From assembly GCA_903836515.1 (NCBI GenBank), contig CAILQW010000061.1, positions 1-61,339 of the forward strand: 61,339 bases of DNA, read 5' to 3'. Of this stretch, positions 9,215 through 53,860 are shown piece by piece. Position 1 is the first letter of the stretch; each line of letters opens with the position of its first letter. A program made the translations under genes and the position numbers. Source of the stretch: Candidatus Omnitrophota bacterium (GTDB lineage Bacteria; Omnitrophota; Gorgyraeia; Zapsychrales; Fredricksoniimonadaceae). A model generated the notes under the pieces. That model was given only the letters and a program-made list of their open reading frames with translations, was not told the DNA's origin and searched no databases.

Positions 9215-9228
9215 GGAAAGGGGCCGGC

Positions 9229-9495: not shown

Positions 9496-9546
9496 AGAGG
9501 CGTTTCCCCGGCAGGGGATGCGGGCGATAACCAGAAAAGGGAAGGT

Positions 9547-9768: not shown

Positions 9769-9809
9769 GTTCTGCGGCCGGGGACAGGGCCTGCGGGAGG
9801 GCATGATAC

Positions 9810-10046: not shown

Positions 10047-10060
10047 CCAAGGAGTTTAAG

Positions 10061-10816: not shown

Positions 10817-10849
10817 CCATCCCTCCGCGCGGGGCGGGTAAGGTATTTT

Positions 10850-13175
<2,326 letters not shown>

Positions 13176-13177
13176 CC

Positions 13178-14899: not shown

Positions 14900-14904
14900 T
14901 CCCG

Positions 14905-16119: not shown

Positions 16120-16217
16120 TTTATTATTTTTACACCCCGAATTTTTTCAGTTGTGGTATTTTTATTACATCAGCAGGGCGATGCCTTTGCTTGGGATAAC
16201 CATCAGGGAGGTTCGAT

Positions 16218-18671: not shown

Positions 18672-18682
18672 TCAATTTTATG

Positions 18683-18712
18683 TTGAAGCCCTTTAAAGAC
18701 ATAGTCTATAAT
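18683..18712 (+). promoter_or_regulatory. Putative sigma70 promoter internal to the T2SS cluster
   Basis: TTGAAG-18-TATAAT in the only AT-rich gap between gspK and the GspL-like gene. Confidence 0.55.
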
Positions 18713-18735
18713 GGTGCCATTAAAGATCGGATCTT

Positions 18736-29262: not shown

Positions 29263-29267
29263 ATCCG

Positions 29268-30059
29268 TTACTGTATCGGTTTTGCGGCGTCTGCGCAAGG
29301 CATAAGGGGCGTTTTCCTGCGCGAGGCATGCAGCATCAGGAATATCTTGAGAAGATCCAGGCCGCTGGTGACAAAGTCTTTCAAACGGAGTTTGGAGCCT
29401 TTCTTATCGATCCAGATCCGCAGGGGATATTCCATGCAGATGGTGTCTACCGGCGGAAAGCCTTGATGTTGAGTGATAATAAAACGCGCCAGGATCTCGA
29501 CGTCGAATATCCAGTGTGTGGTAAAAGGGGCGGCAAAAATCTGCTTGAGCCTGGTGTTGACACGGAAGAGCTTGGCCCCGCATTGGGTGTCATAAACGCG
29601 CAAGCCCAGGATCATGGAGGTGGCTGTGGCAAAGGCGCGTCCGGCATAGTGCCGCACAGGGTTGCGTTCGATCTTGTAGCCCAGCAAGGCGACGCGCGAG
29701 GCCATGGCGATGTCTTTATGGCCTTGGGTGAGGGCGTTTTCAAGTTCCAGCATGCTTGCGATGGGCGCGGCCAGATCTGCGTCGAGAAACCCGATCAGGG
29801 CGGGGTTCATGGTAAAGCCTTTGAGAAATCCCAGGCGGACCGCTTCCGCCTTGCCGCTGTTATGCGGCAGGTGCAACACGCTGATGTGTCCAGGGGCCTT
29901 GGCCTGAAGATCATCGAGCATCGCGGATGTTTTGTCCGTGGAGCCGTCGTCCACGAAAAGAAGATGAATCGCGGCGTGTTGTCCGGCAAAAGCCAAAAAC
30001 ACGTCAGGCATCAGGCGCTCGGCTTCGTTGTAACAGGGGATGACAATGAGGATGCGCAT
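29268..30059 (-). CDS. GT2 polyprenol-phosphate glycosyltransferase (ALG5/DPG synthase-like)
   Basis: IVIPCYNEAERL, FVDDGSTD, NSGKAEAVRLG, FLDADLA, DTQCGAKLF, WIFDVEIL. Confidence 0.9.
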   Translation of the reverse strand: MRILIVIPCYNEAERLMPDVFLAFAGQHAAIHLLFVDDGSTDKTSAMLDDLQAKAPGHISVLHLPHNSGKAEAVRLGFLKGFTMNPALIGFLDADLAAPIASMLELENALTQGHKDIAMASRVALLGYKIERNPVRHYAGRAFATATSMILGLRVYDTQCGAKLFRVNTRLKQIFAAPFTTHWIFDVEILARFIITQHQGFPPVDTICMEYPLRIWIDKKGSKLRLKDFVTSGLDLLKIFLMLHASRRKTPLMPCADAAKPIQ

Positions 30060-31510
30060 CAGGGCTGGTTCTTGGCTTCTTTGGCTATTTTACTGAAGAC
30101 GGGATAGAGCTTTTCCCAGATGAGCCTGGCCTGGGTGCAGTTATCCCCGTGGTAGCGCATCAGGTAGTAACGTGACAAGAGCATGTGGTAATGGTAGCGG
30201 TAGAGGAAATTCATCCACGCCTGGTCGGTTTTGGCATGGCTGGCTTCTTCCCGTGTCCAGACGCTGAACCAGCCGCGGCTATCCTTGGCGTAATCGTAGA
30301 AATACTGCCGCAGAAAAACACAGGCGAAGGCGCCGGCCAGGGCCAGGGCGAGGAGGCCGGACCATGGCCATTTTTCGGTTGTCTTGTGCAGGATGATGCC
30401 CGTGGCCAGCATGGCGAAAGGCCAGGCGCCGATGGAGCGCAGCGGGTGAGGGTTTTCGATCCATACGAGCGTGGCCGGGAAAATGCCGATGATGATATTG
30501 ATCCCCAGGAAGCCAAGGAATAGAAGTGTTGCTGTGGCAGCGGCCGGTTTGCGCTGGATAAAGCGCAACGCCATCCAGCCAAGCCCTGCCACAAGCGCGG
30601 TCACGTCGATCCAGCTCAGCATGCCCTGGTGCCCGGTCGAAAGGGTAAGATTTTTGGGAGTTCCTTTAAAGAATAGATAATCAGGGTGCAGGTGGGCGAT
30701 AAAATTCTGGATGACGATTTTAAAAAGCTCCAGCATTGTTCCGGAACTGCCGATGTCGCGCAAGTGCTCAGGGTTGGTGATGGCGACTTCCTTAAATCGT
30801 GCGGACAAAGAGGGGTGGGTGAGATAAAACCATACCAGGGGAGTGCTGGTGAGGAGAAACGCCGCGGCTAAGGCGACGAGGTGGCGGATGCGCCATTGGC
30901 GCCAGATAAGGCCGTAACACGTCATGATGAGAATGAAAAGCGGGACCTGCAGCCTGGCGGTTGGATACGAATAGGCCGCGCCCGACAAGAGCATCCCGGC
31001 CAGGATGAAGTGCCAGGATCGTTTGGCTTTCAGGCAGAAAAAAAGTCCCCAGATCAGGAAGGGGAGCATGAGCAAGGATTCCCATGAGACGCGCGAGATA
31101 GACCATATCCAGGGCGATAGGCTGGCCGCCAAAAGGATCCATAGGCCGCAGCGCAGGCCGGCGAGGTAGTACCCGATGGCAAAAAGTCCCAGCAAGCCGA
31201 TGACAACGGCAAAAGCCGTGAATCCGCGCAATGCGCCTTGGGAAAAGCCAAAGGCTTTGACCCAGAGCATGCCCGGGTACATATAGGTCGGCGGGGAGGG
31301 CGTGGCAAAGCTGTTTTCGCCGAAAAGCGGATAATGGGTATCGCCCAGCGGAGAGGCGCCTTCCTGGGCCATACAGCTTAAGGTGACACCGGCCGTCAAT
31401 TCATCGATCTGAAACCCGTCGGGCACATCACCCAGGCCGACAAAACGCAGCACATTGACACTCAGGATCAGGCTGATGAGGAGGGCAGGAAGAATGTATT
31501 TCTTTAACAT
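30059..31510 (-). CDS. GT-C fold membrane glycosyltransferase (ArnT/PMT-like)
   Basis: First loop VPDGFQIDE, multiple TM segments, SRVSWES, YSYPTAR. Confidence 0.8.
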   Translation of the reverse strand: MLKKYILPALLISLILSVNVLRFVGLGDVPDGFQIDELTAGVTLSCMAQEGASPLGDTHYPLFGENSFATPSPPTYMYPGMLWVKAFGFSQGALRGFTAFAVVIGLLGLFAIGYYLAGLRCGLWILLAASLSPWIWSISRVSWESLLMLPFLIWGLFFCLKAKRSWHFILAGMLLSGAAYSYPTARLQVPLFILIMTCYGLIWRQWRIRHLVALAAAFLLTSTPLVWFYLTHPSLSARFKEVAITNPEHLRDIGSSGTMLELFKIVIQNFIAHLHPDYLFFKGTPKNLTLSTGHQGMLSWIDVTALVAGLGWMALRFIQRKPAAATATLLFLGFLGINIIIGIFPATLVWIENPHPLRSIGAWPFAMLATGIILHKTTEKWPWSGLLALALAGAFACVFLRQYFYDYAKDSRGWFSVWTREEASHAKTDQAWMNFLYRYHYHMLLSRYYLMRYHGDNCTQARLIWEKLYPVFSKIAKEAKNQP

Positions 31511-31641
31511 ACCCTAGGGTTTTTCAAGGATGTTTTTTTGTTTATGTCTGGATGAAGTCCCATTATAAATAGAGAAGTGCCATGTGCAAGCGATTTCTGT
31601 TCAGTTCTGGCCGGGCTTCCAGGATCATCCGCAGAAAACCT

Positions 31642-31670
31642 TTGGTGATGCGCTCTCCGGCGTGTACAAT
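31642..31670 (+). promoter_or_regulatory. Putative sigma70 promoter giving a leaderless helicase mRNA
   Basis: TTGGTG-17-TACAAT, with the ATG at 31677 six nt after the -10 and no SD. Confidence 0.45.
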
Positions 31671-31676
31671 GTCCCG

Positions 31677-33023
31677 ATGGACATTGATTCCAACCGTATC
31701 CACAAGACCCCTGAGTTCATCCGCGCTTTCGGGATGTTCGAAGAAACATCGAAGCATATCTTCCTGACCGGCCGCGCCGGGACCGGGAAGTCGACGCTCC
31801 TGCAGTATTTTCGTGCCAGCACCAGGAAGAACGTCGCGGTGCTCGCCCCCACAGGGGTGGCCGCGGTCAATATCAAGGGACAGACGATCCATTCGTTCTT
31901 CAATTTCAGGCCCGACATCACGCCCGAAAGCGCCAAGACCATCCGCTTGCGCCGGGGCCAGCGCGACCTTTACCGCGGCCTGGACGCGGTGGTCATTGAC
32001 GAGGTGTCCATGGTGCGTGCGGATCTCCTCGATTGTGTGGATGCTTTTTTGCGGCATAACGGCCCGGACAAGAAGAAGCCTTTTGGCGGCATACAGATGG
32101 TCCTGGTCGGCGACCTGCACCAGCTGCCGCCCGTGGTGACCAGTGCCGAGCGCGAAATATTTGCCGAACATTATCCCAGCCCTTATTTCTTCGATGCCCG
32201 TGTTTTCATGGAGTGCGGCTTCGAACTGCTGGAACTTGAAAAAGTCTACCGGCAGACCGAGGACAGGTTTATCCGGCTGTTGAACGCTGTGCGCGATAAT
32301 ACAGTGGATGGGGAGGATATGACCCTTTTGAACGCGCGCTGTCACCCGGACTTTGAGCCGTCCCACGGGGATTTTTATGTGTACCTGACCACGACCAATG
32401 ACCTGGCGGATAATATCAACCGCGTGCGCCTGGCCGCGACCAGGGGCAAGGCCTATACTTACGGCGGCGAGGTGAGCGGGGCGTTTGAGAAAAAGAACTT
32501 GCCGACGCATGAAGAGCTTCAGCTGAAGTCCGGGGCCCAGGTCATGCTGTTAAACAACGACCCTTTGGGCCGCTGGGTGAACGGGTCGATCGGACAGGTC
32601 CTGAGTGTGATCCATGGTGTTAGCGACGGCGAGGATGCGGTGTGCGTGCGCCTGGCGGACGGGCAGGAGGTGGAGGTGACCCCCTTTACCTGGGAGATGT
32701 TCCGTTTTGTGTATGACAAGGAGCTGGCGCGTGTAGATTCCCAAAGCGTGGGGTCATTCCGGCAGTACCCTCTGCGTCTGGCCTGGGCAGTTACCATTCA
32801 CAAGTCGCAGGGCAAGACGTTTCCGAAAGTTATCATTGATGTCGGGAGAGGTACATTTTCTCACGGGCAGACCTATGTGGCCCTGTCTCGCTGTACCACC
32901 CTGGAAGGCATTGTGCTCAAGCGGCCGATCCTGCGGCATCATATCATCCTTGATCCGCGTATCAGGGGGTTTGTGGAAAACTTTAAAAAAAAGATGCGGA
33001 ATCAGCATCTTGTTCTAGAATAA
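31677..33023 (+). CDS. PIF1-family (SF1B) DNA helicase
   Basis: TGRAGTGKST, APTGVAA, TIHSFF, IDEVSMV, GDLHQLPPV, VYRQ, AWAVTIHKSQG, YVALSR. Alternative GTG start at 31584. Confidence 0.92.
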   Translation: MDIDSNRIHKTPEFIRAFGMFEETSKHIFLTGRAGTGKSTLLQYFRASTRKNVAVLAPTGVAAVNIKGQTIHSFFNFRPDITPESAKTIRLRRGQRDLYRGLDAVVIDEVSMVRADLLDCVDAFLRHNGPDKKKPFGGIQMVLVGDLHQLPPVVTSAEREIFAEHYPSPYFFDARVFMECGFELLELEKVYRQTEDRFIRLLNAVRDNTVDGEDMTLLNARCHPDFEPSHGDFYVYLTTTNDLADNINRVRLAATRGKAYTYGGEVSGAFEKKNLPTHEELQLKSGAQVMLLNNDPLGRWVNGSIGQVLSVIHGVSDGEDAVCVRLADGQEVEVTPFTWEMFRFVYDKELARVDSQSVGSFRQYPLRLAWAVTIHKSQGKTFPKVIIDVGRGTFSHGQTYVALSRCTTLEGIVLKRPILRHHIILDPRIRGFVENFKKKMRNQHLVLE

Positions 33024-33052
33024 ATGAGACGTATTATAAATAAGTCAGTAAC

Positions 33053-33841
33053 ATGGAGATGTTTATGCCCAAGAAAATACTTATAGCCGACGACGAGCCC
33101 ACAGTCGTTGCCTTGGCCCGCCAGAAACTCGAAGAGCAGGGGTATGAGGTGAAGACCGCGCGTAATGGCAAAGAGGCCTGGGATATCATGCAGAACGGAC
33201 CGGTGGACCTGGTCGTGACGGACGTTGTCATGCCGGTCATGGACGGCGTTGATCTTTACAAGGAGATCAAGAAGGACCCGCGCCTGGCGGATATCCCCAT
33301 CGTGATCATTACGGATAACCGGATCTTCCGGGAATCTTTCCAGACGCTGGGGGTTGAGCACTTTCTGCCCAAGCCGCTTGATTCGGAAAAACTTGTCCAT
33401 AAAGTGGAATACATCTTCACTTGCGCGGAACTGGAGCGCAAAAACAAGCAGGCCCTTATTCTTGGCGCCAATCCGGACGTCAACAAGGACATGGTCCGTA
33501 TCTTTCAGGAACAGGGCTGTATTGTCGGTACCAGCACGGATCCTATCGAGTTCATTTCCAACTGCCTCATCCTTCTGCCCAGGGCGGTGATGATCGATGT
33601 CCTGGTGAAAGGCGATGTGCCAAGCCGTGATATTATCCGGGCCTTGCGCTGTTTTACACGCCTGAGCAGTATGGATATCCTGGTCTTTACCCAATTTGCC
33701 CCTGAAGATATCGGGAGCATGCAGGGCATCGAGGAGCTTCGTCAGGCCAAGAACGATTGCATGGAAGCGGGGGCGACCAAGTATATCGGACGCTTTACGC
33801 CCGCTACATTCTGGGAGATGGTCAAGGACAAAATTAACTGA
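33053..33841 (+). CDS. Response regulator with a canonical receiver and a second degenerate receiver, no output domain
   Basis: ILIADDE, VVTDVVMPVMDG, FLPKP. Second alpha/beta unit with VMIDVL and GATKYI. Start may be 33065. Confidence 0.8.
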   Translation: MEMFMPKKILIADDEPTVVALARQKLEEQGYEVKTARNGKEAWDIMQNGPVDLVVTDVVMPVMDGVDLYKEIKKDPRLADIPIVIITDNRIFRESFQTLGVEHFLPKPLDSEKLVHKVEYIFTCAELERKNKQALILGANPDVNKDMVRIFQEQGCIVGTSTDPIEFISNCLILLPRAVMIDVLVKGDVPSRDIIRALRCFTRLSSMDILVFTQFAPEDIGSMQGIEELRQAKNDCMEAGATKYIGRFTPATFWEMVKDKIN

Positions 33842-34946
33842 GTTCTTCGCACACAACCAGGGCCGCGCGGCGGCTGGCTCCGGGGGCGCCCAGCAGGTCT
33901 TTGACGCGGGATAGTTCCCGGCGGAGGGTGTCTGAGGGATCAAGTGTTTTTAATGTTTCCCAGGCGATTTGCCGGGGGGACGCGTTATTCTGCAGCAATT
34001 CTTCCACGATCTTTTTTCCCGCCACAATGTTTACCAGGGCAATGCAGGGGATCCTGACCAGGAGCCGGGCCAGAAACCAGGTGAGCCAGGACGTTTTGTA
34101 TACAACCACCATAGGCTTGCCCATGAGCGCGGTTTCGAGCGTGGCGGTTCCTGAGCAGACGATCCCGCTGTCACAGGCACCCAGCGCATTGTAATAATCT
34201 TCGGATATTTTGAGCCCTTCAGGAGCGCGGGGCATCCAGGGGGTGAAAATGCCCTGGGCAAGGCTCTTGGCCTTGAGGAGGATGAACTGTGTTTCCGGGC
34301 GTTGCTGTTGGATGAGGCGGGCTGCATCCAGCATGACAGGCAGGTGCCGCGAGATTTCCTTGGCGCGCGATCCGGGCAGAAGGGCAATGACAGGCTTTTG
34401 GGTATCAAGGCCGCTCTGTGCCAGGAAGGCGTCGCGGGGGGTGTCGCTGTGGACTTCATCCACCAGGGGATGGCCGACAATGTCAGCGGCATAGCCATGG
34501 CGGGCGTAAAGATCCTTTTCAAAAGGGAAGAGCACCATCATCCGGTCGACCGAGCGTTTCACCGCCTCGACACGGGATTCTTTCCAGGCCCACACCTGGG
34601 GGCTGATGTAATAGATGACCTTGATCCCGTCTTTTTTGAGTTCCCTGGCCAGGCGGAGGTTGAAGCCCGGATAATCCACAAGGATCGCCGCGTTCGGGCG
34701 TTCCGTGCGGGCGTGTTCCAGGGTCAGGTCGAACACGCGTTTCAGGCGGGCAAGGTTCTTGATGACTTCGCTGAAGCCGATGACCGCAAGTTCCGTGATG
34801 TCCGTAAATGTGGCCACACCGGCGCGCCGGCATCGCTCGCCGCCGATACCGATGAAACGGGTGCCGGGGCACAGCGCCGTGATCTCGCGCACAAGAGCTG
34901 CCGCGCGCATGTCGCCGGATTCCTCGCCGGCAACGATCAGGATCAT
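33834..34946 (-). CDS. lpxB: Lipid-A-disaccharide synthase
   Basis: IVAGEESGD, LVDYPGFNLRLA, YYISPQVWAW, VGHPL, LLPGSR.KE, SGTATLE. Start 34946 (ATGA overlap) or 34964. Confidence 0.93.
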   Translation of the reverse strand: MILIVAGEESGDMRAAALVREITALCPGTRFIGIGGERCRRAGVATFTDITELAVIGFSEVIKNLARLKRVFDLTLEHARTERPNAAILVDYPGFNLRLARELKKDGIKVIYYISPQVWAWKESRVEAVKRSVDRMMVLFPFEKDLYARHGYAADIVGHPLVDEVHSDTPRDAFLAQSGLDTQKPVIALLPGSRAKEISRHLPVMLDAARLIQQQRPETQFILLKAKSLAQGIFTPWMPRAPEGLKISEDYYNALGACDSGIVCSGTATLETALMGKPMVVVYKTSWLTWFLARLLVRIPCIALVNIVAGKKIVEELLQNNASPRQIAWETLKTLDPSDTLRRELSRVKDLLGAPGASRRAALVVCEELS

Positions 34947-35872
34947 TTGAGGTGCTCGGACCATATGATGTTCTGGATGTCGAGGGCTGTTTTGAGGGCG
35001 TCCCGGCCTTCCGTTCCGGAAACCAGGGGTTTTTTGTCTTCGCGGATACATTCAAGGAAATGCGCGAGTTCGCGCCGCAGAGGTTCTTCTTTTTCAATGG
35101 GCAAAGCTGTGCGGGTGATCGTCGTGCCGTCCTTGCGATAGATGAACGCTTCCTGCTTGACGTAGTCGAGGGAAATGTAGGCATTAGGGATAAAGATGCG
35201 TATCTTGCGCATCACTTCCGGAGAAACGCGGCTGGCGGTCAGGTTGCACACCGAGCGGTTGGCAAAGGTCAGGCGCACGTTGGCGATGTCGTCCTTGGAT
35301 GTCAGGACATTGATGCCGATGGCCTGGATATCGGCCAAAGGCGCGTTGATGAGCCCCTGGACAATGTCGATATCATGGATCATCAGGTCCATCACAACCC
35401 CGATGTCGAGCGAACGGTTGGGGAATTTATTCAGGCGGTGGCATTCGATGAACAGGGCGTCGCGCGCAATGTCCTTGATGGCCTGGAAGGCGCTGTTGAA
35501 GCGTTCGATATGCCCGACCTGGAGCTTGACGTTGTGCTCGCGAGCGGCGTTAACAAGGAGGTCGGCCTCGTCAATGTTCATGGCGATGGGCTTTTCAATG
35601 AGCGTATGGATACCTGCGTTAAGGCATAAAAGGCCTGTGGCGCCATGGTTGGTGGTGGGCGTGCAGATGCTGACCGCTTCCGCCTTGCCGATCAGATCCC
35701 TGGCATCCGGGAAGAATGTGGTGTGGTATTCGCGCGCGAGTTTTTGCCCGGCGTCTTTGTCGAGATCCGAGATCCCGACGAGCTCAGCCTGGTCCCGCAT
35801 TTGGTGGTACGTTTTGAGGTGACGGGAACCCAGATGGCCCACACCGATCACAGCGACTTTTATTTTTTTCAT
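34943..35872 (-). CDS. Gfo/Idh/MocA oxidoreductase (GnnA-like by context)
   Basis: VAVIGVGHLG, LIEKPIA, VGHIERFN, DLMIHDID. Translationally coupled to lpxB. Confidence 0.88.
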   Translation of the reverse strand: MKKIKVAVIGVGHLGSRHLKTYHQMRDQAELVGISDLDKDAGQKLAREYHTTFFPDARDLIGKAEAVSICTPTTNHGATGLLCLNAGIHTLIEKPIAMNIDEADLLVNAAREHNVKLQVGHIERFNSAFQAIKDIARDALFIECHRLNKFPNRSLDIGVVMDLMIHDIDIVQGLINAPLADIQAIGINVLTSKDDIANVRLTFANRSVCNLTASRVSPEVMRKIRIFIPNAYISLDYVKQEAFIYRKDGTTITRTALPIEKEEPLRRELAHFLECIREDKKPLVSGTEGRDALKTALDIQNIIWSEHLK

Positions 35873-45508: not shown

Positions 45509-48500
45509 ATGCATCAATTTCTGCGTCAGGGGAGTTTGCGTCATCTCAAGCAACGGGCATGGTTTCGCCTGTTGTGTCTTACTGTGTTGGTTACTTATTG
45601 CATTGATTTGGTCGGTATGGACCTGCTTCGGACCCGTGAGGCGTATGCGCAAAGCGTGGTTGTGGCTCCCGTGCCAGGTGTGTTGCTGCCTTCTTCCGCT
45701 CCCGGATCCAGTCCGCTTCTTAAGGCCATATCCCTTGACCCGGCGGATCCGTTCAAGATCAATTTTCTCGTTGATGCCGGTGATCACGCGCGTGTCGATG
45801 AGAAGGAATCCAGCCGGCTTATAAAGTATTTTCTTACCTGTCTGACTATTCCTGAGAAAGATCTTTGGGTTAATTTGTCTCCCTCCGAACCCGGCCGTAT
45901 TGTGGATAAGAGGTTAGGTGCCACTACGGTGGGCGCGGATATGCTCAGAGAAGATTATCTGCTTAAACAATTGGCCGCGTCCATGACATTCCCCGACCGA
46001 GAGCCAGGCAAGGCATTCTGGAAACAGGTGTATGTCAGGATCAAGAAAAAATATGGTGATCTTGACCTTCCGGTGGACACCTTCAGCAAGGTATGGGTGG
46101 TGCCGGCAAAAGCTGTTGTGTACGAACAGGCAGGCAAGGCGTTTATTGCTGAAAGCCGGTTGAAGGTCATGCTGGATGAAGATTATCTGACCAACAAGAG
46201 CCATGTGACGCCTGATCAGGCACACCGTGATGATGCCGGCAAGGCCGATGATGTGTACCGGACGATCGCGCGCGAGATCATTATTCCGGAACTTGAGCGG
46301 GAAGTGAACGACGGCCAGTATTTTGCCCCGCTGCGCCAGATCTTCAGTGCGCTGATCCTGGCGATATGGTTTAAACGGAAATTGCGCCACAATATCATGA
46401 ACCGGGTATATGCCGATCAAAAGAAAACATCCGGTATCCAGACGGATGACAGGCAGGTGAGCCAGAAGGTCTATGCCCAGTATATGCTCGCGCTCAAGAA
46501 GGGGGTTTATGATGTGATCCGTGAGGATTATGACACGGATCAACAGGAGACCGTTGCACGCCATTATTTCTCCGGAGGATTTTCTTTTGAGAAAGCCGCC
46601 GGGAAGATTGATTTTGCCCAACTGTCTTCTTCGCGGGTTGACCGTTTGAAGTTACTCAAGGAAATCGGCAGTAATCTTGTCACGCTGGGTGTTTCGTTTA
46701 TCCCCAGAGGGATGCCCAAAAAGATGCTTCTGGCGTTGGCCATGGTTTCTCTTTCTTCTTCCGTTGTCCCTGCACCAGGGTTAGCTCCCAGGCAAGCCGT
46801 TGTCGCGCCTAAAGCCGTAGTTGTCAGCACAATACCCAGAGCAACACCACCACCGGTTATTGCAACAACAACGCCGGAGGCTGTTTCCGAGGCTATCATC
46901 AAAAGGGGCGACAAGATACCGGAAGCGGATCAGAAGTATCTTACTTATATGAAGGAAATGCTCACATTGAAGGATGTCCAGGATCTTCATGGAACGGTCA
47001 ACGCGTCGCTGCACATGACGTATGCGTTTGATATGACGCCGATAGAAAATAATTGGGACGCTATTTTCACGGCATCCACCATGGGCTGGCGGCAGGAAGT
47101 TGTGGTGATGACAGTCCAACAGAAGCTGGGGATTACAGCAGACGGCATCATGGGCCCAGAGACGCGTCGTGCGTTGAACGCTAAAATAGGGACGAAGGCA
47201 GCAGCTCCTGCTGGATCAGTATCTTCCCAGGTGTCGTTGCCGCAGGCCTCTAGAGGATTTTCTGTTGTGTCTGATAAAGCACCTTTTTCGATAGAGCCGG
47301 TCTCTCTGACCGCACCGAGCGGAGGTGTGGTGAATGGGTTTGATGTGCATAAGACAAAATATCGTAAGGGAGAGCCTATTCTTAAGGTATTGGATCCTGG
47401 CCTTGCGCAACAAATAGCTGCGTTAAAAGGGCAATTAAGTCCACTGCAGCAGCGGCTCAAGCGATTAAAGGCGTTGCAAGCGGCGCATCCGGGGGCCATT
47501 ACAGACATTGAGATCACAACAGCGGGTCTTGAGGTTCAAAATATCTCGCAGCAGTTGGCGCCGTTGATCCAGATCGAACAGGCAGGAGTTCTCAGGGCGC
47601 CTTATGATTTTCTTATCAAAGAGATCCGTGTGGGTAATGGACAAACGGTGTCCTCCAAGACAGTTTTGCTCGATTATCTTTCCGGGCAAATGCCAAGCTT
47701 TACGCTCAGGATGACTCGGGAAGAATCCCAAAACCTGGATCATAAGCGCATCACCATTGACGGCCAGCCTGTCACCTCGAACCCCAAGCTGGATATCCGC
47801 ATTGATCCCTTGAAGCCTAGCGAGGCGCTTGTTACATTCGTTGTGACGACAGCGTTGGATATTCAGGCCGGGAGTGTGCATCAGGTGAAGGTGGAGGTGC
47901 CGGCTTCTGTGGCGGATGACGGACTTGCGCTGGTGAAGGGAGTGGCTCATACAACCGCCAAAGTCGGATCATCCCCGGAGATACCGGTTGTTACTCTTGG
48001 AGCAGGTCCTGTCAACATCCTTGTCAGGCCCGGGCAAGAGGTTTTTCAGGGGCAGGTGGCGGCTATTCAACCTGGGGCCGCACAAGCCTGGCATGCGACC
48101 AAACTTTTGTATGACCAGGTGGATGTTCAGCTCAAGGAGAGGACTTCCGGCAATGGGGTCTATTTTACAACCACTCAAACGATGCCGCTGGAAACAAGAA
48201 GGGCTTCCTTGAAGGCGCAATTGCAGGCACAAGGTGAGGCTGTTGGCCGTTCTTTCATTAAAGCGCCTTGCAACGGTACGGTGACGACGGTGTCGTTATC
48301 AGGCGCTTTTACGCCGGGGAGCGAAATCTTCCGTTTAAATGGCCCTGTCCGTATCGGTGATCTGAATGATCCCAAAGGGGCGATCTTTGTGTCGGGCCTA
48401 TTGGATATCAAGAACGGTGATCCTGTCCTTGTGCGGACAGGATCGGGAAGGAATATCCCTGCCAGGATCACGAATATCAATAAGATGCCTGTAAGCCCGG

Positions 48501-51500
48501 GCATGGATCTTCAGGGCCTTCAGTCCCTTGAGGTGACGGCTATGGATCCGGATCATTATTTAGGCCTTAATATGCGGGTCACGGTCATTGTGCTCACAGA
48601 TGCCGAGAAATTACTTGTTGCGAAGAAGTTGGTGCCAGCCATGAAAGGGCAGCCCAGCCAGCGCACGGTCGCCGCGATGACGCCGGTGCCAGGATCAGAG
48701 CCACCCAGGAAAAAGACCGTTCCGATGCCGGAACCTGTAGACCTTGTTGGGCCGATTCAGACGGCCGCTTTATCGCCTGCCGCGATGGCCTCCGTCCCGC
48801 CAGCAGCGCCCCAGGTTCCATCGGTTTCAAACATGGCATTCTTTCAGAATATGCCTGTAGAATTTACTCCATCAACGGAGCAGGAAGTCGAGATCGGCAA
48901 AGTGGGACGTAATATTGAGGCATTGAAGAAGCTGGTGGGTGACCTCCAGGACGCCAGTCGCGTGCTTGCGGCCAGAGAGGCGGTAGCGCTTGCGCTTACG
49001 TCCGAAAAGGATGGGTTGAATCTGAAGATCCAGCATGTCGGTCAACGGCTTGCTGATGCAGAGGATCATAAGCGCCTTCTCATGGATAATATGGGTCAGA
49101 CTGATGTTGAAAAGAAAGATTCACGTTTCCACTGGGATGGCCAGTTCCCCCGTTTTTACACCGACAAGAAAGGCGCCTTTGATCCTCCATCCTCGTATTT
49201 AAATTGGAATATGTCCTTTGCTGAAAGGAGGGCGGTCAATGACATGAAGGCTTTGAGCGTGCTCATCAGACAGCAGAACAGTACATGTGATTCCAATCGT
49301 CGGGCTTTGGAGGAACAAAGCCGGATTTTACGGAAGGATCAACTGGTTGATCTGCGCGAGAAAGTGACGGATAGCGTCCTTAGATTGAACGAGCTCAAGG
49401 CGCAATATTTTAAGGCATGCTTGTTGGTTAGAGGGCACCTTTGGGACAGTAATAACTGGGGGGCCCCCCGCGTGCCGGCAGAGGCGGGACAACAGGTAAC
49501 GGAGCCCCGGCAACAGGCACCGGTCGTCCAGGCTGTGCTGGCCGCGGTTACAGAAGCGGTGGGTGCACCGCGACCTGCACCAGTGTATCATCCGAAAACA
49601 TCAGTCAGGCATCCTGATGAAGGTATTTCGTTGGCACAGCCGCGCATGTCATCGACGGTCAAGCCGCCTGGCGACGGTTTTATGGGTACGGGAGTTGTGT
49701 CGTATGATGAAAGCCCGTTGGCGGGGGCAACAGGCGCGGACGGCGAAGTTAATCTGGCACTTTTTGTCCATGACCCCAATCCTCTGGTGCGGATGGAGGG
49801 ACTGGATCTTTTCTTACAGCAAGGGCAGGGTTTGAATTTTATCGCCAATGCCCGGCAGGCTGTCCTGACGAGTCCGTTTCCTGATGTCCAGGCCAGGATA
49901 TTAGGTTATATGGTCGAGAGGAAGGATGCGGGCCTGCGTTTTGTGGTGAGCGTCCTTGATGAGGCGATCAGGAAGAAGCAATGGCCTCTCGTTGAAATTG
50001 GCTTCCAGTCCCTGTCGGACATTCTGGCCCAGGACCCGGCGTTGAAGCAACATGTGTCCGATCTGAATTATGCCTCAGGAACGCCGCTGAGCTCTTTGGT
50101 TCCTGTTGCACCGGAAGGGGCGCGCAAGGTTTTGCTGACGTTCTTGTCCCGTGACGGTGGACGTTCAAAGGCCGGGATAAATTTGTTGCGTCATATGCCC
50201 TCAGATCAGCTGGATCAGATATGTCATACGCTGGAATCATCCGGGGATCCGCGTTGGGGCCAACTTAAGGGGCTTCTCTTGAGCGAGATCATGCGCCAGG
50301 AAGCTGGCCACGGGATCGAGGATATCCAACCAGGTCCTTTCCAGGAGTATTCAACCGCTTACACCTGGGCGGATCAGATGACTTTTTTCCTGTATCATTC
50401 ACCGGAAGGGTTAAAACATATTAACGAGGATTTCCTCAAGGCATCACCGCACGGGGCTGATCCGCAAGGATATCTCCCTCAATGGTTGCGGGATAGGGCG
50501 TTAAAAGGTGTGCAAAAGCGTCTGGCATCAGCGCCTCCGTTGGCGGCGTCTTCCTTGATATATGATCTTCCTCCCGGGTTCGGGAATGCTGTCAATGCAC
50601 TGGCTGATTTTAACAGCCTTCTTGTCGATGCCCGGCAAAAAGATATTTTGCAAACCCAGAATATTGAAAAGCTTGGGCGTATCTTCGCGTCGTCGACTGT
50701 GCACAGCCGCTTGGCGCTTGACAAGTTGATGAAGACACCGGCAGGCATTATTCGGGCCCTGCAGGCTTATGCCGGATCAAAAGACCCGGAAGTGCGTAAA
50801 CTGATGAAAAACCACGCGGCCGATGTTCTGGCCATGAATAATGTCATTAATCCCTTGGATTGCCTTTCCATGCCGATCCGTAATATCCCGGATCCCGTTT
50901 CCATGGGGATCCTGCGCCATGCGTTGGAGCAATTGTATCAGGAGACCAACGACCCTGAGTTTTTGAATCTTCGCCTAAAGACGTTTGGCTTCATTGAACT
51001 GAGCACCGCAAAGGATCCCCGCGGGCAACACAAAGTCGGTGAGCAGATCGAGGCGGAGGCGATACGGCTGTCCTTGGCGTTGCTGGACATGATCAAGCCG
51101 TATTATGTGCCTTTGAGTTCTATTATCAGTGGCCAACATACCTACGACTCTGGCGTGCAGTCGGTTATCGATGACCTGGGCAACAGGATCAATGCGGGAG
51201 ATCCCCGGGAAGTGTCGCGTTATCTGGAAGAGGTCCAAAGAAATGGCGGCGGGGACAAGAAACAATTCGCTAACGATATCAATTCCTGGGAAAAGGCGTT
51301 TGTTTCGAGGATTTCAAGGAATGATCAGGGTGTCCAGGGTATGCCTCTCTGGAATGTTGTTGCTGCGCTTGGCGCTATCGGCTTTGTCCTTAGCACCATG
51401 AAGAAGAATTTGTACAATATGTTTTTCCTGAAGTGGACAAGCATCGCAGGCCTTCGCAGAATGGTGGAGAAAGATTTAATGAAGCCTGAATATTGGATCA

Positions 51501-53860
51501 AGGCAGGCAAGAAGACTGACGCTAGCATGCGAAATCAGCTGTCTTTGTTTGAGGTCCGTAAGATTCCCGATGAGAAGGGCTTCTTTTATAAGGATACGGG
51601 TGATTCTTTGAAACAGTGGGCCGGGATCCTGGGTGGATGGAGCAAGCCCGGTCAGACAACACCGCAAAGTCTTATCCAGGGGTTCAATGATATCCTTAAC
51701 AATGTGGCAAAGATCCTTTATCAGTTGCCGTATACTCCGCAACTCATGGGTGTCCCTGATGCACATGGGGCTTACCTTGATAGAACGTATATCAATGCCT
51801 TGAGTTTTTTTATCACGCTGACAGAGGACACGTTAACAAATCTTGACACTCTCATGCAGCCTGAAATTCTACACGCATTGAGCCCTTCTCAACGGCAGGT
51901 ACTTTCCCGGGACAGGGGTATTCTGGTGGAAAAGGTGGGGTATGCTATCGAGTTTCTGGCTATCCTTGAATTGCGCGGGGTTATGGACAAATGGATCGGC
52001 GAGAAACGTGCGAATGATCACAAGCTGGAAAAGGGAGGTTTTTTCCCGTTCCTGCGAACGTTGCTTTTTCGCGGTACGGGATTGTTAGAGAAAAAATTGT
52101 TCAAGAGATTGCCAGGCCTTTTGGAAAAGGGTGAGGCGTTGATGCCAGGATTGTATCCAGCTGATACGCAGGAAGCCATGGTTTTGCGTAGTCAGGAAAT
52201 ATTTGACGCGATGGAAGCGAATGGAACTACTATGGGGGGGCATGTGCTGCCAGGAACATCCGACACGTTGACACAGAACAGTACGTGGCGGCAGGCACGT
52301 ACAGCCATAGTGTCTCTTGCGGTCGTGGCGGGGGTTGTCTTGTCCTTCGGCAGGTCGTCTACGTTGCCCGCTATTGTGGTTGCGTTTTTGGGCCTGTTCC
52401 TTTATATGATACCGAATATCAAGCTTGCGTCATTGGGCTGGGAGACGGTCTCGCATGTTCTTATCAGGAAACTTGACGCCGCTTTGACCATGTCACTGGG
52501 GCCGGCGCCCAGGGAGAGCAATGGTGACGCTAAAGCCGTGATCATCAAGGCCGCGTTGCAGGAAGCTGATGAACGGCTTAAGGAGGCGTTGGCGGCACAA
52601 AAGCCGTACGTGGATATGGTCGTGATCGTTCCGCAAGACGGTAGCCTTGTGAACAATCTGGATACTTATGTGGCTGCCCGCCGCGGGAAGATCTTCAGGC
52701 ACGATGTGCCGGTTGAAGTGATGGCGCCACAAAGGACAGGCAGTGCGAATCTCAATTTTGAGGTCATGCAGCTGGTGGAGGAGAAATTAAGGGACACTAA
52801 ATTTCTGGAAGAATATCCTTACCTTAAGGACCGCGCGTTGGAGGATATACGGGTGATGGTGGTGTTGCATGGCAACAATGAGGTTCAGCATGACAAGATC
52901 CTGGATCTGGCTATTGTGAACGGGTATCGCATTTTTGCGGTGATGCCTCAAGGGCAAGGCGGGTATGTGCTCATGTACAGCCGGGACGCCTATCTTGGCC
53001 CCGTGCCTGAAGCCATCGATCAGCCGTTAAGTGTGTTTGGTCATTGGGTGGGCGAGGATGGGTTGATGACATTGGGCCTGTTGGACCTGATCAAGAAAAG
53101 AGTCCTCGAAAAACTGAATATCAAGAAGTTGAAAAAGACCGCAGGCGATGCTGATTCTTATGGCGGTTCAGTACTGAAATATCTGGGTGCTCATTTTGAT
53201 TTGTCTAAAGAGCAGTTAGAGCAGTATCCCGGAGGGATCGGCATAACGGTTTTTAATCCTTCAACAGTTTCGATCCTTGCAAAGATTTTGCATCAATTGC
53301 AAAAAGATCCTGATCTTTGGGATAAGTTAAATCTGCAGATGACCCTGGATATTATCGATGTTCTCAAAATATCTTCGCAAGCCGAACGGCAAAAATATAT
53401 TAACAAACGGATCACGCTTCCAGATATTGAGCAAGAATATGCCGTTAAAGATCCAGAAAGGGTGCGGCTTCTTTTGTCTGCGTTTTATGGGATGTTCAAT
53501 GGGCCTTCGATTCCCTTTACTGATTTCCTTCCGCATCCCGGCGCCGCGGTGGTGAAGCATCTTAAAACAGCTGAAGATCGGGACGCCATCCTGCGCTTGT
53601 TGCAAGGCTGGCGCGATGACGCCGCCGCGCTTGTCCCTGTCCAGGCAAGTGTCCCTGTGCAAATCGATAATGGCGGGCTTGACCTTTCACGGGCGCAGGA
53701 CCAGATTGAATGGCGTGGCGGTCACGCGCCTGAGGCCCCCTCATTGGATCCGGTTTATTCCGGGCATGCGGTCCAATTCCTTCAGCTTTTCCGTGGTTTT
53801 GATTTTCGCATCACAGCCTCCCAGCCGCTTGAAGATCCCAAGGTATTTTTAGGCTTTTAA
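45509..53860 (+). CDS. Giant 2783-aa mosaic protein (conserved leader domain, PG-binding-like motif, two MFP-like modules, helical repeats, TM segments, GGLDL tail)
   Basis: Uninterrupted 8.35-kb ORF. LWVNLSP...DYLLKQLAAS...FWKQVY...TFSKVWVVP leader, QQKLGITADGIMGPETRRAL, two lipoyl-hairpin-lipoyl patterns. Confidence 0.9.
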   Translation: MHQFLRQGSLRHLKQRAWFRLLCLTVLVTYCIDLVGMDLLRTREAYAQSVVVAPVPGVLLPSSAPGSSPLLKAISLDPADPFKINFLVDAGDHARVDEKESSRLIKYFLTCLTIPEKDLWVNLSPSEPGRIVDKRLGATTVGADMLREDYLLKQLAASMTFPDREPGKAFWKQVYVRIKKKYGDLDLPVDTFSKVWVVPAKAVVYEQAGKAFIAESRLKVMLDEDYLTNKSHVTPDQAHRDDAGKADDVYRTIAREIIIPELEREVNDGQYFAPLRQIFSALILAIWFKRKLRHNIMNRVYADQKKTSGIQTDDRQVSQKVYAQYMLALKKGVYDVIREDYDTDQQETVARHYFSGGFSFEKAAGKIDFAQLSSSRVDRLKLLKEIGSNLVTLGVSFIPRGMPKKMLLALAMVSLSSSVVPAPGLAPRQAVVAPKAVVVSTIPRATPPPVIATTTPEAVSEAIIKRGDKIPEADQKYLTYMKEMLTLKDVQDLHGTVNASLHMTYAFDMTPIENNWDAIFTASTMGWRQEVVVMTVQQKLGITADGIMGPETRRALNAKIGTKAAAPAGSVSSQVSLPQASRGFSVVSDKAPFSIEPVSLTAPSGGVVNGFDVHKTKYRKGEPILKVLDPGLAQQIAALKGQLSPLQQRLKRLKALQAAHPGAITDIEITTAGLEVQNISQQLAPLIQIEQAGVLRAPYDFLIKEIRVGNGQTVSSKTVLLDYLSGQMPSFTLRMTREESQNLDHKRITIDGQPVTSNPKLDIRIDPLKPSEALVTFVVTTALDIQAGSVHQVKVEVPASVADDGLALVKGVAHTTAKVGSSPEIPVVTLGAGPVNILVRPGQEVFQGQVAAIQPGAAQAWHATKLLYDQVDVQLKERTSGNGVYFTTTQTMPLETRRASLKAQLQAQGEAVGRSFIKAPCNGTVTTVSLSGAFTPGSEIFRLNGPVRIGDLNDPKGAIFVSGLLDIKNGDPVLVRTGSGRNIPARITNINKMPVSPGMDLQGLQSLEVTAMDPDHYLGLNMRVTVIVLTDAEKLLVAKKLVPAMKGQPSQRTVAAMTPVPGSEPPRKKTVPMPEPVDLVGPIQTAALSPAAMASVPPAAPQVPSVSNMAFFQNMPVEFTPSTEQEVEIGKVGRNIEALKKLVGDLQDASRVLAAREAVALALTSEKDGLNLKIQHVGQRLADAEDHKRLLMDNMGQTDVEKKDSRFHWDGQFPRFYTDKKGAFDPPSSYLNWNMSFAERRAVNDMKALSVLIRQQNSTCDSNRRALEEQSRILRKDQLVDLREKVTDSVLRLNELKAQYFKACLLVRGHLWDSNNWGAPRVPAEAGQQVTEPRQQAPVVQAVLAAVTEAVGAPRPAPVYHPKTSVRHPDEGISLAQPRMSSTVKPPGDGFMGTGVVSYDESPLAGATGADGEVNLALFVHDPNPLVRMEGLDLFLQQGQGLNFIANARQAVLTSPFPDVQARILGYMVERKDAGLRFVVSVLDEAIRKKQWPLVEIGFQSLSDILAQDPALKQHVSDLNYASGTPLSSLVPVAPEGARKVLLTFLSRDGGRSKAGINLLRHMPSDQLDQICHTLESSGDPRWGQLKGLLLSEIMRQEAGHGIEDIQPGPFQEYSTAYTWADQMTFFLYHSPEGLKHINEDFLKASPHGADPQGYLPQWLRDRALKGVQKRLASAPPLAASSLIYDLPPGFGNAVNALADFNSLLVDARQKDILQTQNIEKLGRIFASSTVHSRLALDKLMKTPAGIIRALQAYAGSKDPEVRKLMKNHAADVLAMNNVINPLDCLSMPIRNIPDPVSMGILRHALEQLYQETNDPEFLNLRLKTFGFIELSTAKDPRGQHKVGEQIEAEAIRLSLALLDMIKPYYVPLSSIISGQHTYDSGVQSVIDDLGNRINAGDPREVSRYLEEVQRNGGGDKKQFANDINSWEKAFVSRISRNDQGVQGMPLWNVVAALGAIGFVLSTMKKNLYNMFFLKWTSIAGLRRMVEKDLMKPEYWIKAGKKTDASMRNQLSLFEVRKIPDEKGFFYKDTGDSLKQWAGILGGWSKPGQTTPQSLIQGFNDILNNVAKILYQLPYTPQLMGVPDAHGAYLDRTYINALSFFITLTEDTLTNLDTLMQPEILHALSPSQRQVLSRDRGILVEKVGYAIEFLAILELRGVMDKWIGEKRANDHKLEKGGFFPFLRTLLFRGTGLLEKKLFKRLPGLLEKGEALMPGLYPADTQEAMVLRSQEIFDAMEANGTTMGGHVLPGTSDTLTQNSTWRQARTAIVSLAVVAGVVLSFGRSSTLPAIVVAFLGLFLYMIPNIKLASLGWETVSHVLIRKLDAALTMSLGPAPRESNGDAKAVIIKAALQEADERLKEALAAQKPYVDMVVIVPQDGSLVNNLDTYVAARRGKIFRHDVPVEVMAPQRTGSANLNFEVMQLVEEKLRDTKFLEEYPYLKDRALEDIRVMVVLHGNNEVQHDKILDLAIVNGYRIFAVMPQGQGGYVLMYSRDAYLGPVPEAIDQPLSVFGHWVGEDGLMTLGLLDLIKKRVLEKLNIKKLKKTAGDADSYGGSVLKYLGAHFDLSKEQLEQYPGGIGITVFNPSTVSILAKILHQLQKDPDLWDKLNLQMTLDIIDVLKISSQAERQKYINKRITLPDIEQEYAVKDPERVRLLLSAFYGMFNGPSIPFTDFLPHPGAAVVKHLKTAEDRDAILRLLQGWRDDAAALVPVQASVPVQIDNGGLDLSRAQDQIEWRGGHAPEAPSLDPVYSGHAVQFLQLFRGFDFRITASQPLEDPKVFLGF

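What the first reader, a model, noticed from the sequence alone, without database searches (positions are those of the whole stretch)
47100..48620. Two membrane-fusion-protein-like modules and a PG-binding-like motif embedded in a 2783-aa protein
Seen: QQKLGITADGIMGPETRRAL (about 47115-47175). Then LTAPSGGVV...GEPILKV-[coiled coil RLKRLKAL]-LRAPYDFLIKEIRVGNGQTV, and a second copy VRPGQEVFQG-[helix]-IKAPCNGTVTTV...beta-barrel-like. Established: lipoyl-hairpin-lipoyl-barrel is the HlyD/RND adaptor architecture, normally a stand-alone protein of about 40 kDa. Inference: a giant protein carrying its own tandem adaptor, perhaps forming a trans-envelope conduit or a device for contacting another cell's envelope. 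I know no precedent for this architecture.
Basis: partly seen in the sequence, partly recalled or inferred. Interest (0 to 1): 0.75.

Follow-up and report, generated by a model that had tools for sequence, protein, structure and literature searches.

The report
Giant envelope protein with fused adaptor pair
A 2783-residue membrane protein of an uncultured Omnitrophota bacterium really does carry two efflux-pump adaptor modules, a peptidoglycan-binding-like domain and the helical remnant of a TolC-like outer-membrane channel in one chain. It belongs to an apparently undescribed protein family that may build an envelope-spanning tunnel from a single polypeptide.

Summary
ORF 45509-53860 (+) encodes 2783 aa. 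Residues 597-809 and 810-1046 are two homologous MFP (periplasmic adaptor) modules, each split lipoyl, alpha-hairpin, beta-barrel. The family profile hits MFP structures at E 4e-11, Foldseek hits MacA/MexA/AcrA at E 3.5e-8, and module 1 aligns to module 2 at hhalign 96%. Residues 460-563 form a confident helical domain whose last 35 residues match PG_binding_1 domains (profile E 8.6e-5).

New here: at least 35 collinear 2500-3500-aa homologues exist, and every named source is Omnitrophota. Most carry a Pfam-detectable TolC/OEP domain directly after the adaptor pair. That gives 2 adaptors : 1 TolC per chain, the ratio of assembled tripartite pumps. The window protein and three close relatives have lost the beta-barrel strands and keep only two long helical hairpins (aa 1121-1314).

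Further downstream lie a helical solenoid, three TM helices and a lineage-specific cytoplasmic alpha/beta domain with no ATPase motifs. The gene stands alone, with no transporter partner nearby.

The conduit idea is plausible but unproven. The "no precedent" claim is only partly right, because natural fused adaptor dimers are known. I call it a new variant of a known kind. The protein also shares an N-terminal head and a C-terminal tail with hundreds of other giant proteins, those that carry a name being Omnitrophota.

The parts
45509..53860 (+). Giant ORF, 2783 aa plus stop codon (P0001)
   Evidence: Collinear over the full length with P0002 and P0004 at 42-44% identity.
45557..45631 (+). N-terminal hydrophobic segment (aa 17-41) after a basic stretch; signal anchor or signal peptide
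   Evidence: Hydropathy peak 1.93. Conserved in most homologues. Orientation by the positive-inside rule is an inference.
45671..46708 (+). 'Head' module (aa ~55-400), shared with hundreds of other giant proteins that carry unrelated middle domains (named sources: almost all Omnitrophota)
   Evidence: 40-58% identity over query aa ~20-360. No Pfam, NCBIfam or PDB sequence match.
46886..47197 (+). Conserved helical domain (aa 460-563); its C-terminal third (aa 527-563, motif at nt 47117-47176) is PG_binding_1-like
   Evidence: pLDDT 84-96. Profile vs PDB: 4lpq E 8.6e-5 and 5tv7 E 0.0076. Pfam PG_binding_1 in 18 of 21 members, best 22.7 bits vs cutoff 23. Weak endolysin hits in BFVD.
47297..47935 (+). 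MFP/periplasmic-adaptor module 1 (aa 597-809): lipoyl half, alpha-hairpin (aa 630-692, nt 47396-47584), lipoyl half, beta-barrel
47936..48646 (+). MFP/periplasmic-adaptor module 2 (aa 810-1046): lipoyl half, alpha-hairpin (aa 856-913, nt 48074-48247), lipoyl half, beta-barrel, capping helix
48869..49090 (+). TolC-derived helical hairpin A (aa 1121-1194)
   Evidence: pLDDT 83-96. Homologous to the TolC-like domain of relatives: hhalign 99.7%, E 4.6e-26.
49217..49450 (+). TolC-derived helical hairpin B (aa 1237-1314). The beta-strand segment that lies between A and B in relatives is deleted.
49733..51328 (+). All-helical (HEAT-like) solenoid (aa 1409-1940), predicted periplasmic
   Evidence: Secondary structure of both models (aa 1501-1699 lie in neither model). 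Conserved in the family.
51332..51403 (+). Transmembrane helix (aa 1942-1965)
51404..52249 (+). Predicted cytoplasmic helical domain (aa 1966-2247)
   Evidence: pLDDT 84-96 for aa 2029-2239. Basic residues after the TM helix.
52250..52432 (+). Transmembrane helical hairpin (aa 2248-2308)
52523..53605 (+). Lineage-specific cytoplasmic alpha/beta domain (aa 2339-2699) with no P-loop
   Evidence: pLDDT about 90. No significant PDB fold match; weak hits to NDP-sugar pyrophosphorylases. Only 49 relatives among 1.84 billion representatives. No Walker A or LSGG motif.
53606..53857 (+). C-terminal 'tail' (aa 2700-2783) with GGLDLS (nt 53672-53689) and FRGFDFRI (nt 53789-53812), shared with other head-bearing giants
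   Evidence: a loose either/or motif test flags 105 of 120 proteins. No Pfam or NCBIfam match.

Best explanation
This is one member of an Omnitrophota-restricted family of about 3000-aa inner-membrane-anchored envelope proteins. One chain strings together the following parts:
- an N-terminal anchor and 'head' module;
- a PG_binding_1-like domain;
- a fused pair of periplasmic-adaptor (MFP) modules;
- a TolC-like outer-membrane-factor domain;
- a helical solenoid;
- three TM helices;
- a lineage-specific cytoplasmic alpha/beta domain.

Proposed mechanism (inferred): three chains assemble. The six adaptor modules form the hexameric ring and the three TolC-derived segments form a 12-helix alpha-barrel above it. 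This reproduces in one gene the 6:3 adaptor:TolC arrangement of tripartite pumps. The result is a peptidoglycan-tethered periplasmic tunnel or strut rooted in the inner membrane.

In most relatives the tunnel ends in a TolC beta-barrel in the outer membrane. In the window protein and its three closest relatives the barrel strands are deleted. Here the helical tunnel probably stops below the outer membrane or docks onto a separate outer-membrane protein. What passes through it, and what drives passage, is unknown. The only candidate is the novel cytoplasmic domain, which has a faint nucleotide-sugar-transferase-like look.
For: Shown:
- Two MFP folds that arose by internal duplication.
- A PG_binding_1-like element.
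- TolC/OEP above the Pfam cutoff in relatives, directly after the pair, plus a weak PDB OprJ hit with the family profile.
- The window's two hairpins are homologous to that TolC domain, with the strand part deleted.
- Conserved TM helices at query aa ~1955 and ~2272-2295 and an N-terminal hydrophobic segment.
- LpxB and a porin in the window, so the organism has an outer membrane.
- The adaptor modules and hairpins are as conserved within the four-member subclade (56-59% identity) as the other domains, and clearly more than the linkers (22-45%).
- The gene stands alone in three genomic contexts.

From established knowledge: 3:6:3 assemblies built as a trimer of adaptor dimers, natural fused dimeric adaptors, and adaptor hexamers that superimpose on the TolC helical barrel (PMC4446572).

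Inferred: trimerisation, tunnel formation and topology.
Against: - No recognisable energising transporter (ABC, RND or MFS) in the chain or next to it. No Walker A motif.
- No RLS tip motif in the hairpins.
- The window protein lacks the outer-membrane barrel.
- Some relatives lack TolC altogether (P0016) or the whole adaptor-TolC cassette (P0007) yet keep the rest. The cassette is therefore not essential to the family's core function.
- No oligomer model or experiment was possible.
- The hydrophobic stretch at aa 405-426 could be a TM helix and would then invert the predicted topology. It is not conserved, though.
Confidence: 0.45

Rival explanations
1. Static envelope tether. The adaptor and TolC-derived modules are co-opted as rigid periplasmic spacers that, with the PG-binding-like domain, staple the inner membrane to peptidoglycan and the outer membrane. 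Nothing is transported.
For: - No transporter or ATPase domain.
- A PG-binding-like domain is present.
- The barrel is lost in this subclade while the helices stay conserved.
- A long solenoid is present.
Against: The exact 2:1 adaptor:TolC ratio and a complete TolC domain in most relatives are what a channel needs, not what a strut needs. A large conserved cytoplasmic domain is unexplained by a pure tether.
Confidence: 0.25
2. Decaying relic. The adaptor-TolC cassette is being lost in this lineage and is functionally irrelevant. The protein's real job lies in its head, solenoid and C-terminal domains.
For: Stepwise losses are seen across the family: barrel-less here and in P0002-4, TolC-less in P0016, cassette-less in P0007.
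Against: Within P0001-4 the adaptor modules and hairpins are 56-59% identical, like the other domains, while linkers are 22-45%. The folds are predicted with high confidence. The reading frame is intact over 8.3 kb.
Confidence: 0.12
3. Cell-contact or predation device. The protein reaches out of the cell to engage another cell's envelope.
For: Omnitrophota are proposed symbionts or predators, and giant proteins are suspected adhesins (PMC10066038). The window also holds the F-ATPase/type-IV-pilus locus discussed in that paper.
Against: No adhesin-type domain was found. Adaptor, PG-binding and TolC modules work inside the cell's own periplasm. The chain is anchored at both ends in the inner membrane.
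Confidence: 0.08
4. Assembly chimera or mis-called ORF.
For: The contig comes from a metagenome, and the exact protein is on record from one contig only.
Against: The same module order occurs in at least 35 homologues from independent assemblies, two of them aligned end to end in one BLAST segment. P0003 shares the downstream porin-pst genes. There is no internal stop.
Confidence: 0.01

Closest known systems
Periplasmic adaptor / membrane fusion proteins of tripartite pumps (MexA, AcrA, MacA, EmrA; NCBIfam TIGR01730, Pfam HlyD families)
   Same: Split lipoyl domain interrupted by an alpha-hairpin and followed by a six-stranded beta-barrel. Foldseek E about 1e-8, TM-score 0.6 to MexA. Profile E 4e-11.
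   Different: Two modules in tandem inside a 2783-aa chain. There is no membrane-proximal domain (each module is only about 210-235 aa) and no RLS tip motif. Scores are below the curated cutoffs, and no adjacent transporter gene was found.
Natural fused dimeric adaptors (DSY0927 of Desulfitobacterium hafniense), two-adaptor pumps (TriA/TriB) and engineered AcrA dimers
   Same: Two adaptor units per functional protomer, taken as evidence for a trimer of adaptor dimers (PMC4446572). The family profile also hits the fused TriA-TriB chain 6vej.
   Different: Those are stand-alone adaptors that serve a separate RND transporter and a separate outer-membrane factor. Here the pair is fused to TolC-derived and membrane or cytoplasmic modules. 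I did not compare sequences with DSY0927 itself.
TolC / outer membrane factor family (Pfam OEP PF02321; OprJ, VceC)
   Same: Relatives carry an OEP domain above the cutoff (11 of 16, best E 1.6e-12). The window's hairpins are homologous to it.
   Different: The window protein has no OEP hit and lacks the beta-strand and equatorial parts. About 115 profile columns are missing from the second half and about 100 residues from the first. The domain is internal to the chain, not a free trimeric lipoprotein or porin.
PG_binding_1 (PF01471) domains of L,D-transpeptidases, SleB and endolysins
   Same: The helix, 'G..DG..GP.T' loop, helix element aligns to 4lpq, 5tv7, 5nm7, 6tci and 7aj9.
   Different: Only about 35 of about 100 conserved residues match. 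The N-terminal two thirds are family-specific. The score is just under the Pfam cutoff. Binding is untested.
Giant proteins of Omnitrophota (West-Roberts 2023 preprint; Seymour 2023; 2026 complete-genome preprint)
   Same: Same phylum, SP/TM-anchored multi-domain giants with HEAT-like scaffolding.
   Different: Those papers treat ORFs of 10 kaa or more, or over 20 kb. Term searches find no mention of TolC, HlyD, adaptors or efflux in any of them; a separate search of the 2026 preprint turned up no shared head or tail.

Membership tests
Periplasmic adaptor / MFP (HlyD-RND_mfp superfamily) | Lipoyl (barrel-sandwich) domain split by an alpha-helical hairpin | tested here: met
   Seen twice in the AF2 model: aa 598-628 / 630-692 / 694-724, and aa 813-853 / 856-913 / 916-944. 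Foldseek. Biotin_lipoyl and HlyD_D23 in relatives.
Periplasmic adaptor / MFP (HlyD-RND_mfp superfamily) | Beta-barrel domain after the lipoyl domain | tested here: met
   Strands at aa 730-796 and aa 947-1028, plus a capping helix at 1031-1046. About 245-column alignments to MexA and AcrA.
Periplasmic adaptor / MFP (HlyD-RND_mfp superfamily) | Score above the curated family cutoff | tested here: not met
   TIGR01730 at 26.6 bits vs 94.9. HlyD_3 at 20.9 vs 22.2. Only the family profile is significant.
Periplasmic adaptor / MFP (HlyD-RND_mfp superfamily) | Membrane-proximal domain and own lipid or TM anchor (RND-type adaptors) | tested here: not met
   Modules of about 210-235 aa leave no room for it, and no extra strands appear in the model. 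This feature is not universal among adaptors.
Periplasmic adaptor / MFP (HlyD-RND_mfp superfamily) | RLS motif at the hairpin tip | tested here: not met
   No match to R-x3-L-x6-[ST] in aa 600-930. The motif is not universal (PMC4446572).
Periplasmic adaptor / MFP (HlyD-RND_mfp superfamily) | Works with a cognate inner-membrane transporter (ABC, RND or MFS), usually in the same operon | tested here: not met
   None in the chain. None next to it in three loci. A partner elsewhere in the genome cannot be excluded.
TolC / OMF (Pfam OEP) | OEP repeats above the Pfam cutoff | tested here: not met
   No OEP hit in the window protein at E<=1. Met in 11 of 16 relatives.
TolC / OMF (Pfam OEP) | Beta-strands that contribute to a 12-stranded outer-membrane barrel | tested here: not met
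   The corresponding segments are deleted in P0001-4.
TolC / OMF (Pfam OEP) | Long coiled-coil helices of the periplasmic alpha-barrel | tested here: met
   Two hairpins, aa 1121-1194 and 1237-1314, pLDDT 83-96. hhalign 99.7% to the relatives' TolC-like domain.
TolC / OMF (Pfam OEP) | Homotrimer | not testable with these tools
   No multimer prediction was available.
PG_binding_1 (PF01471) | Three-helix bundle carrying the conserved D-G-x-x-G-x-x-T loop, above the Pfam cutoff | tested here: inconclusive
   The loop motif is invariant (D, G, G). Profile E 8.6e-5 to 4lpq but only over helices 2-3. 22.7 bits vs cutoff 23.
PG_binding_1 (PF01471) | Binds peptidoglycan | not testable with these tools
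   Needs a pull-down with aa 460-563.
Fused dimeric adaptor (DSY0927-type) | Two complete adaptor units in one polypeptide | tested here: met
   DSY0927 itself was not compared; the precedent is taken from PMC4446572.

The most novel reading that the evidence does not exclude
The family is a previously unrecognised single-polypeptide trans-envelope machine of Omnitrophota. A homotrimer would supply the inner-membrane base, a hexameric adaptor ring and a TolC duct from one gene. It would be driven or fed by a novel cytoplasmic domain rather than by an ABC, RND or MFS transporter. The shared head and tail would mark a phylum-specific biogenesis or sorting route for hundreds of giant proteins.
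Probability: 0.2. Interest if true: 0.85.

Novelty: new variant of a known kind. Interest (0 to 1): 0.62.

Why it matters
[quoted passage not shown] A natural chain that hard-wires two adaptors to one TolC is independent evolutionary evidence for the trimer-of-dimers design. It also offers a compact object for structural work.

The family lacks any known energising transporter. It shows graded loss of the outer-membrane part: complete, barrel-less, TolC-less and cassette-less. That makes it a natural experiment on what adaptor and TolC modules can do outside efflux.

It also gives a first handle on the mid-sized (2-4 kaa) giants of Omnitrophota, an uncultured phylum of suspected symbionts or predators. 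The common head and tail hint at a shared handling pathway.

Tried and rejected
- Single-sequence searches of aa 521-1052 against PDB gave only marginal lipoyl and PG-binding hits. Profiles were needed.
- Foldseek of the aa 340-1500 model against viral structures found nothing significant. There were only weak endolysin-type hits (E 0.4-1.3), compatible with a PG-binding element.
- Foldseek of the C-terminal model against PDB found nothing at E<0.099. The ABC-exporter rows have RMSD about 28 A, and the protein has no Walker A or LSGG motif, so I rejected an ABC reading. The ADP-glucose and UDP-GlcNAc pyrophosphorylase rows (probability 0.3-0.77) are a hint only.
- phmmer of the C-terminal domain against 1.84 billion representatives found only 49 hits at E<=0.001; those I could place are family members, and the unnamed rest were not examined.
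- The first genome-contig scan, with exact peptides from the window protein, found no relative.
- Alignments A2 and A4, with poorly anchored fragment ends, scattered the termini and were replaced by A3 and A5.
- The promoter and terminator scan was uninformative.
- No neighbouring gene is conserved apart from the porin-pst block in the closest relatives.
- The second giant ORF in the window (20-6376) shares no head, tail or adaptor.
- Term searches of the held library and of five papers for TolC, HlyD or adaptor fusions in Omnitrophota found nothing.

Full report
**The gene.** ORF 45509-53860 on the + strand encodes 2783 aa with no internal stop. It is not part of a transporter operon.
- Upstream lie a histidine kinase, an SNF2 helicase and a SWIM protein.
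- Downstream lie a small unknown ORF, a Porin_5 porin and the pstSCAB-phoU phosphate system.
- Elsewhere the window holds LpxB, an STT3-like oligosaccharyltransferase, glycosyltransferases, and an F-type ATPase cluster that runs straight into type-IV-pilus/T2SS-like genes.
- LpxB and the porin show that the organism has an outer membrane.
- Almost every named hit in the homology search (one is labelled Desulfobulbaceae) and all 27 related loci in GTDB representative genomes are Omnitrophota MAGs, or bins labelled 'uncultured Planctomycetales'.

**Checking the observation.**
- Taken alone, the sequence only brushes the curated models: TIGR01730 RND_mfp E 2.7e-6 but 26.6 bits against a cutoff of 94.9, HlyD_3 at 20.9 against 22.2, and PG_binding_1 at 18 against 23. 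phmmer against PDB is marginal.
- With 28 homologues aligned, the profile hits solved adaptors (4l8j, MacA, EmrA, MexA, TriA-TriB, LipC) in two separate regions, with E down to 3.7e-11.
- An AlphaFold2 model of aa 340-1500 (35-row alignment, mean pLDDT 68.7 because of long linkers) places two confident copies of the adaptor layout at aa 597-809 and 810-1046. Each copy runs three strands, a helix pair, three strands, then a barrel.
- Foldseek against PDB returns 63 hits at E<=0.001. The 50 listed are all adaptors: MacA 3.5e-8, MexA with TM-score 0.61 on the target, plus AcrA, EmrA and Spr0693.
- The two modules align to each other at hhalign 96.4%, E 1.4e-9, so they are an old internal duplication.
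The segments do fold as MFPs, and the chain is not a chimera (see 'The family' below).

**The PG-binding-like motif.** It sits in a roughly 100-aa helical domain (aa 460-563, pLDDT 84-96). This domain is conserved in the family and in a second group of head-bearing proteins of 1700-1880 aa.
- Its profile hits the PG-binding domains of an L,D-transpeptidase (4lpq, E 8.6e-5) and of 5tv7 (E 0.0076). It hits 5nm7, SleB and YcbB more weakly. All hits fall on the last about 35 positions.
- Eighteen of 21 members touch Pfam PG_binding_1, the best at 22.7 bits against a cutoff of 23.
- I read this as a PG_binding_1-derived helix-loop-helix embedded in a family-specific domain. Binding to peptidoglycan is untested.

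**The family.** At least 35 of the 119 other listed hits keep the same order: head, adaptor pair (the PG-like domain ahead of it was checked in only about 13 of them), variable middle, long C-terminal region. P0002 and P0004 are collinear over the full length (42-44% identity) and P0003 in two adjoining BLAST segments. They come from NCBI, ENA, JGI and Logan assemblies, which rules out an assembly chimera.
- In relatives the 'variable middle' is a TolC domain. Pfam OEP is above its cutoff in P0018, P0024 and P0026 at about residues 1420-1630 and in 11 of 16 scanned members (best E 1.6e-12). The family profile weakly hits OprJ (E 0.0086).
- The ancestral chain therefore carries two adaptors and one TolC. 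That is the 6:3 ratio of assembled tripartite pumps, for which fused dimeric adaptors and two-adaptor pumps were already cited as evidence (PMC4446572).

**What is different in this window.** P0001-P0004 have a middle region of 380-389 aa against 525-604 aa in the other 25 aligned relatives.
- The alignment shows the glycine-rich first part and the 'LP...TS..G.N...P..D' strand part missing.
- hhalign of the four-member subclade against the others gives 99.7%, E 4.6e-26 over 213 columns, with a gap of about 115 columns exactly there.
- What remains folds as two long helical hairpins, aa 1121-1194 and 1237-1314, with pLDDT 83-96.
- Other members went further. P0016 keeps the adaptor pair but has no TolC region, and P0007 lacks the whole cassette.
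- The cassette is not decaying in this subclade. Adaptor modules and hairpins are 56-59% identical among P0001-4, like the solenoid (59%) and the C-terminal domain (61%). Linkers are 22-45% identical.

**The rest of the chain.** Conserved hydrophobic segments lie at aa 17-41, 1942-1965 and 2262-2306, the last being a hairpin. A weaker segment at aa 405-426 is not conserved.
- With the basic N-terminus inside, aa ~42-1940 would be periplasmic. That stretch holds the head, the PG-like domain, the adaptors, the TolC remnant and the helical solenoid. Residues 1966-2247 and 2309-2783 would be cytoplasmic. This topology is an inference.
- The second model (aa 1700-2783, pLDDT 79.4, pTM 0.67) shows a helical cytoplasmic domain, the TM hairpin and a confident alpha/beta domain at aa 2339-2699.
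- Foldseek finds nothing significant for that model. The best local rows are ADP-glucose and UDP-GlcNAc pyrophosphorylases at E 0.1-1.3.
- There is no Walker A motif or ABC signature.
- Only 49 of 1.84 billion representative proteins match this domain.
- Its function is therefore open. 'Nucleotide-sugar-transferase-like' is a lead, not a result.

**Mechanism.** I commit, at about 0.45, to a homotrimeric, PG-tethered, periplasm-spanning tunnel or strut. It would be built from six adaptor modules and three TolC-derived segments and rooted in the inner membrane by the C-terminal TM helices. In this subclade the outer-membrane barrel has been lost, so the structure would end under the outer membrane or use another outer-membrane protein.
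- Shown: the folds, their order, the homology to TolC, the deletion, the conservation and the stand-alone gene context.
- Inferred: oligomerisation, lumen, topology and any cargo.
- Rivals: a non-transporting tether (0.25), a functionless relic (0.12), a cell-contact device (0.08) and an artefact (0.01).

**Novelty.** The modules are known, and fused adaptor dimers are known. A giant chain that joins a PG-binding-like domain, an adaptor pair and TolC to novel membrane and cytoplasmic parts appears in none of the papers I could search. A barrel-less derivative of such a chain appears in none either. Databases label relatives only by automatic names such as 'TolC family protein' or 'biotin carboxyl carrier protein'. 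I rate it a new variant of a known kind.

Noticed in passing
window 45566-46708 (aa ~20-400): The N-terminal 'head' module is shared at 40-58% identity with more than 80 other listed giants of 1600-4500 aa, nearly all of the named ones Omnitrophota (779 hits in all). Their middles are unrelated: SNF2, phosphoglycerate kinase, UDPGP, SDR, radical SAM, kinases, methyltransferases, PPDK. It has no Pfam, NCBIfam or PDB sequence match.
   Followed up: partly
window 53606-53857 (aa 2700-2783; GGLDLS at 53672-53689, FRGFDFRI at 53789-53812): In a loose motif test, 105 of the 120 listed proteins, whatever their cargo, carry at least one of two motifs in their last 130 residues: a 'GG[ILV]D[LF]'-type motif and a hydrophobic 'GF.F' motif. 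Most head-bearing giants with other cargo show a 'GfxPVIInIxP'-like second element instead of 'GF.F'. Head and tail therefore bracket a large superfamily. No model exists in Pfam or NCBIfam, and the papers searched do not mention it.
   Followed up: partly
homologues P0007, P0016, P0001-4: Graded loss of the cassette across the family: complete MFP-MFP-TolC in most members, barrel-less TolC in P0001-4, no TolC in P0016, and no adaptors or TolC in P0007.
   Followed up: partly
homologues P0024 and P0032, at about query aa 1343-1383: A signal-peptide-like hydrophobic stretch follows the TolC domain in some relatives (for example RRFVLGLVWAVTLAVIPLSAQEE in P0024). It may be a scar of the gene fusion that joined TolC to the downstream part.
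   Followed up: no
window 52436-53608 (aa 2310-2700): The cytoplasmic alpha/beta domain has only 49 relatives among 1.84 billion representative proteins and no significant fold match. The conserved motifs GS(G/A)N and a following 'V.F.HG' strand recall, from memory only, NDP-sugar or fucose-1-P pyrophosphorylases.
   Followed up: partly
window 7730-21633: F-type ATPase alpha, OSCP, gamma and beta genes run directly into PilB/T2SSE, T2SSF, pseudopilins, PilM/N/O and a TPR protein. This is the F-ATPase/type-IV-pilus co-location that Seymour et al. 2023 discuss as a symbiosis signature of Omnitrophota.
   Followed up: partly
window 20-6376: A second giant ORF (2118 aa, possibly cut by the window start) has two Lysostaphin_N matches and an N-terminal run of 'G(V/I)NW.D(M/L)Q' repeats. 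It shares no head, tail or adaptor with the first.
   Followed up: partly
window 26767-35872 (- strand): An envelope-glycan cluster on the other strand: an STT3-like oligosaccharyltransferase (843 aa), a GT2, three unknown ORFs, LpxB and a GFO/IDH/MocA oxidoreductase.
   Followed up: no
window 45914-46621, 46987-47517, 47465-47950 (- strand): Three antisense ORFs of 161-235 aa lie inside the giant gene. Given the conserved + strand protein, they are most likely chance ORFs.
   Followed up: no
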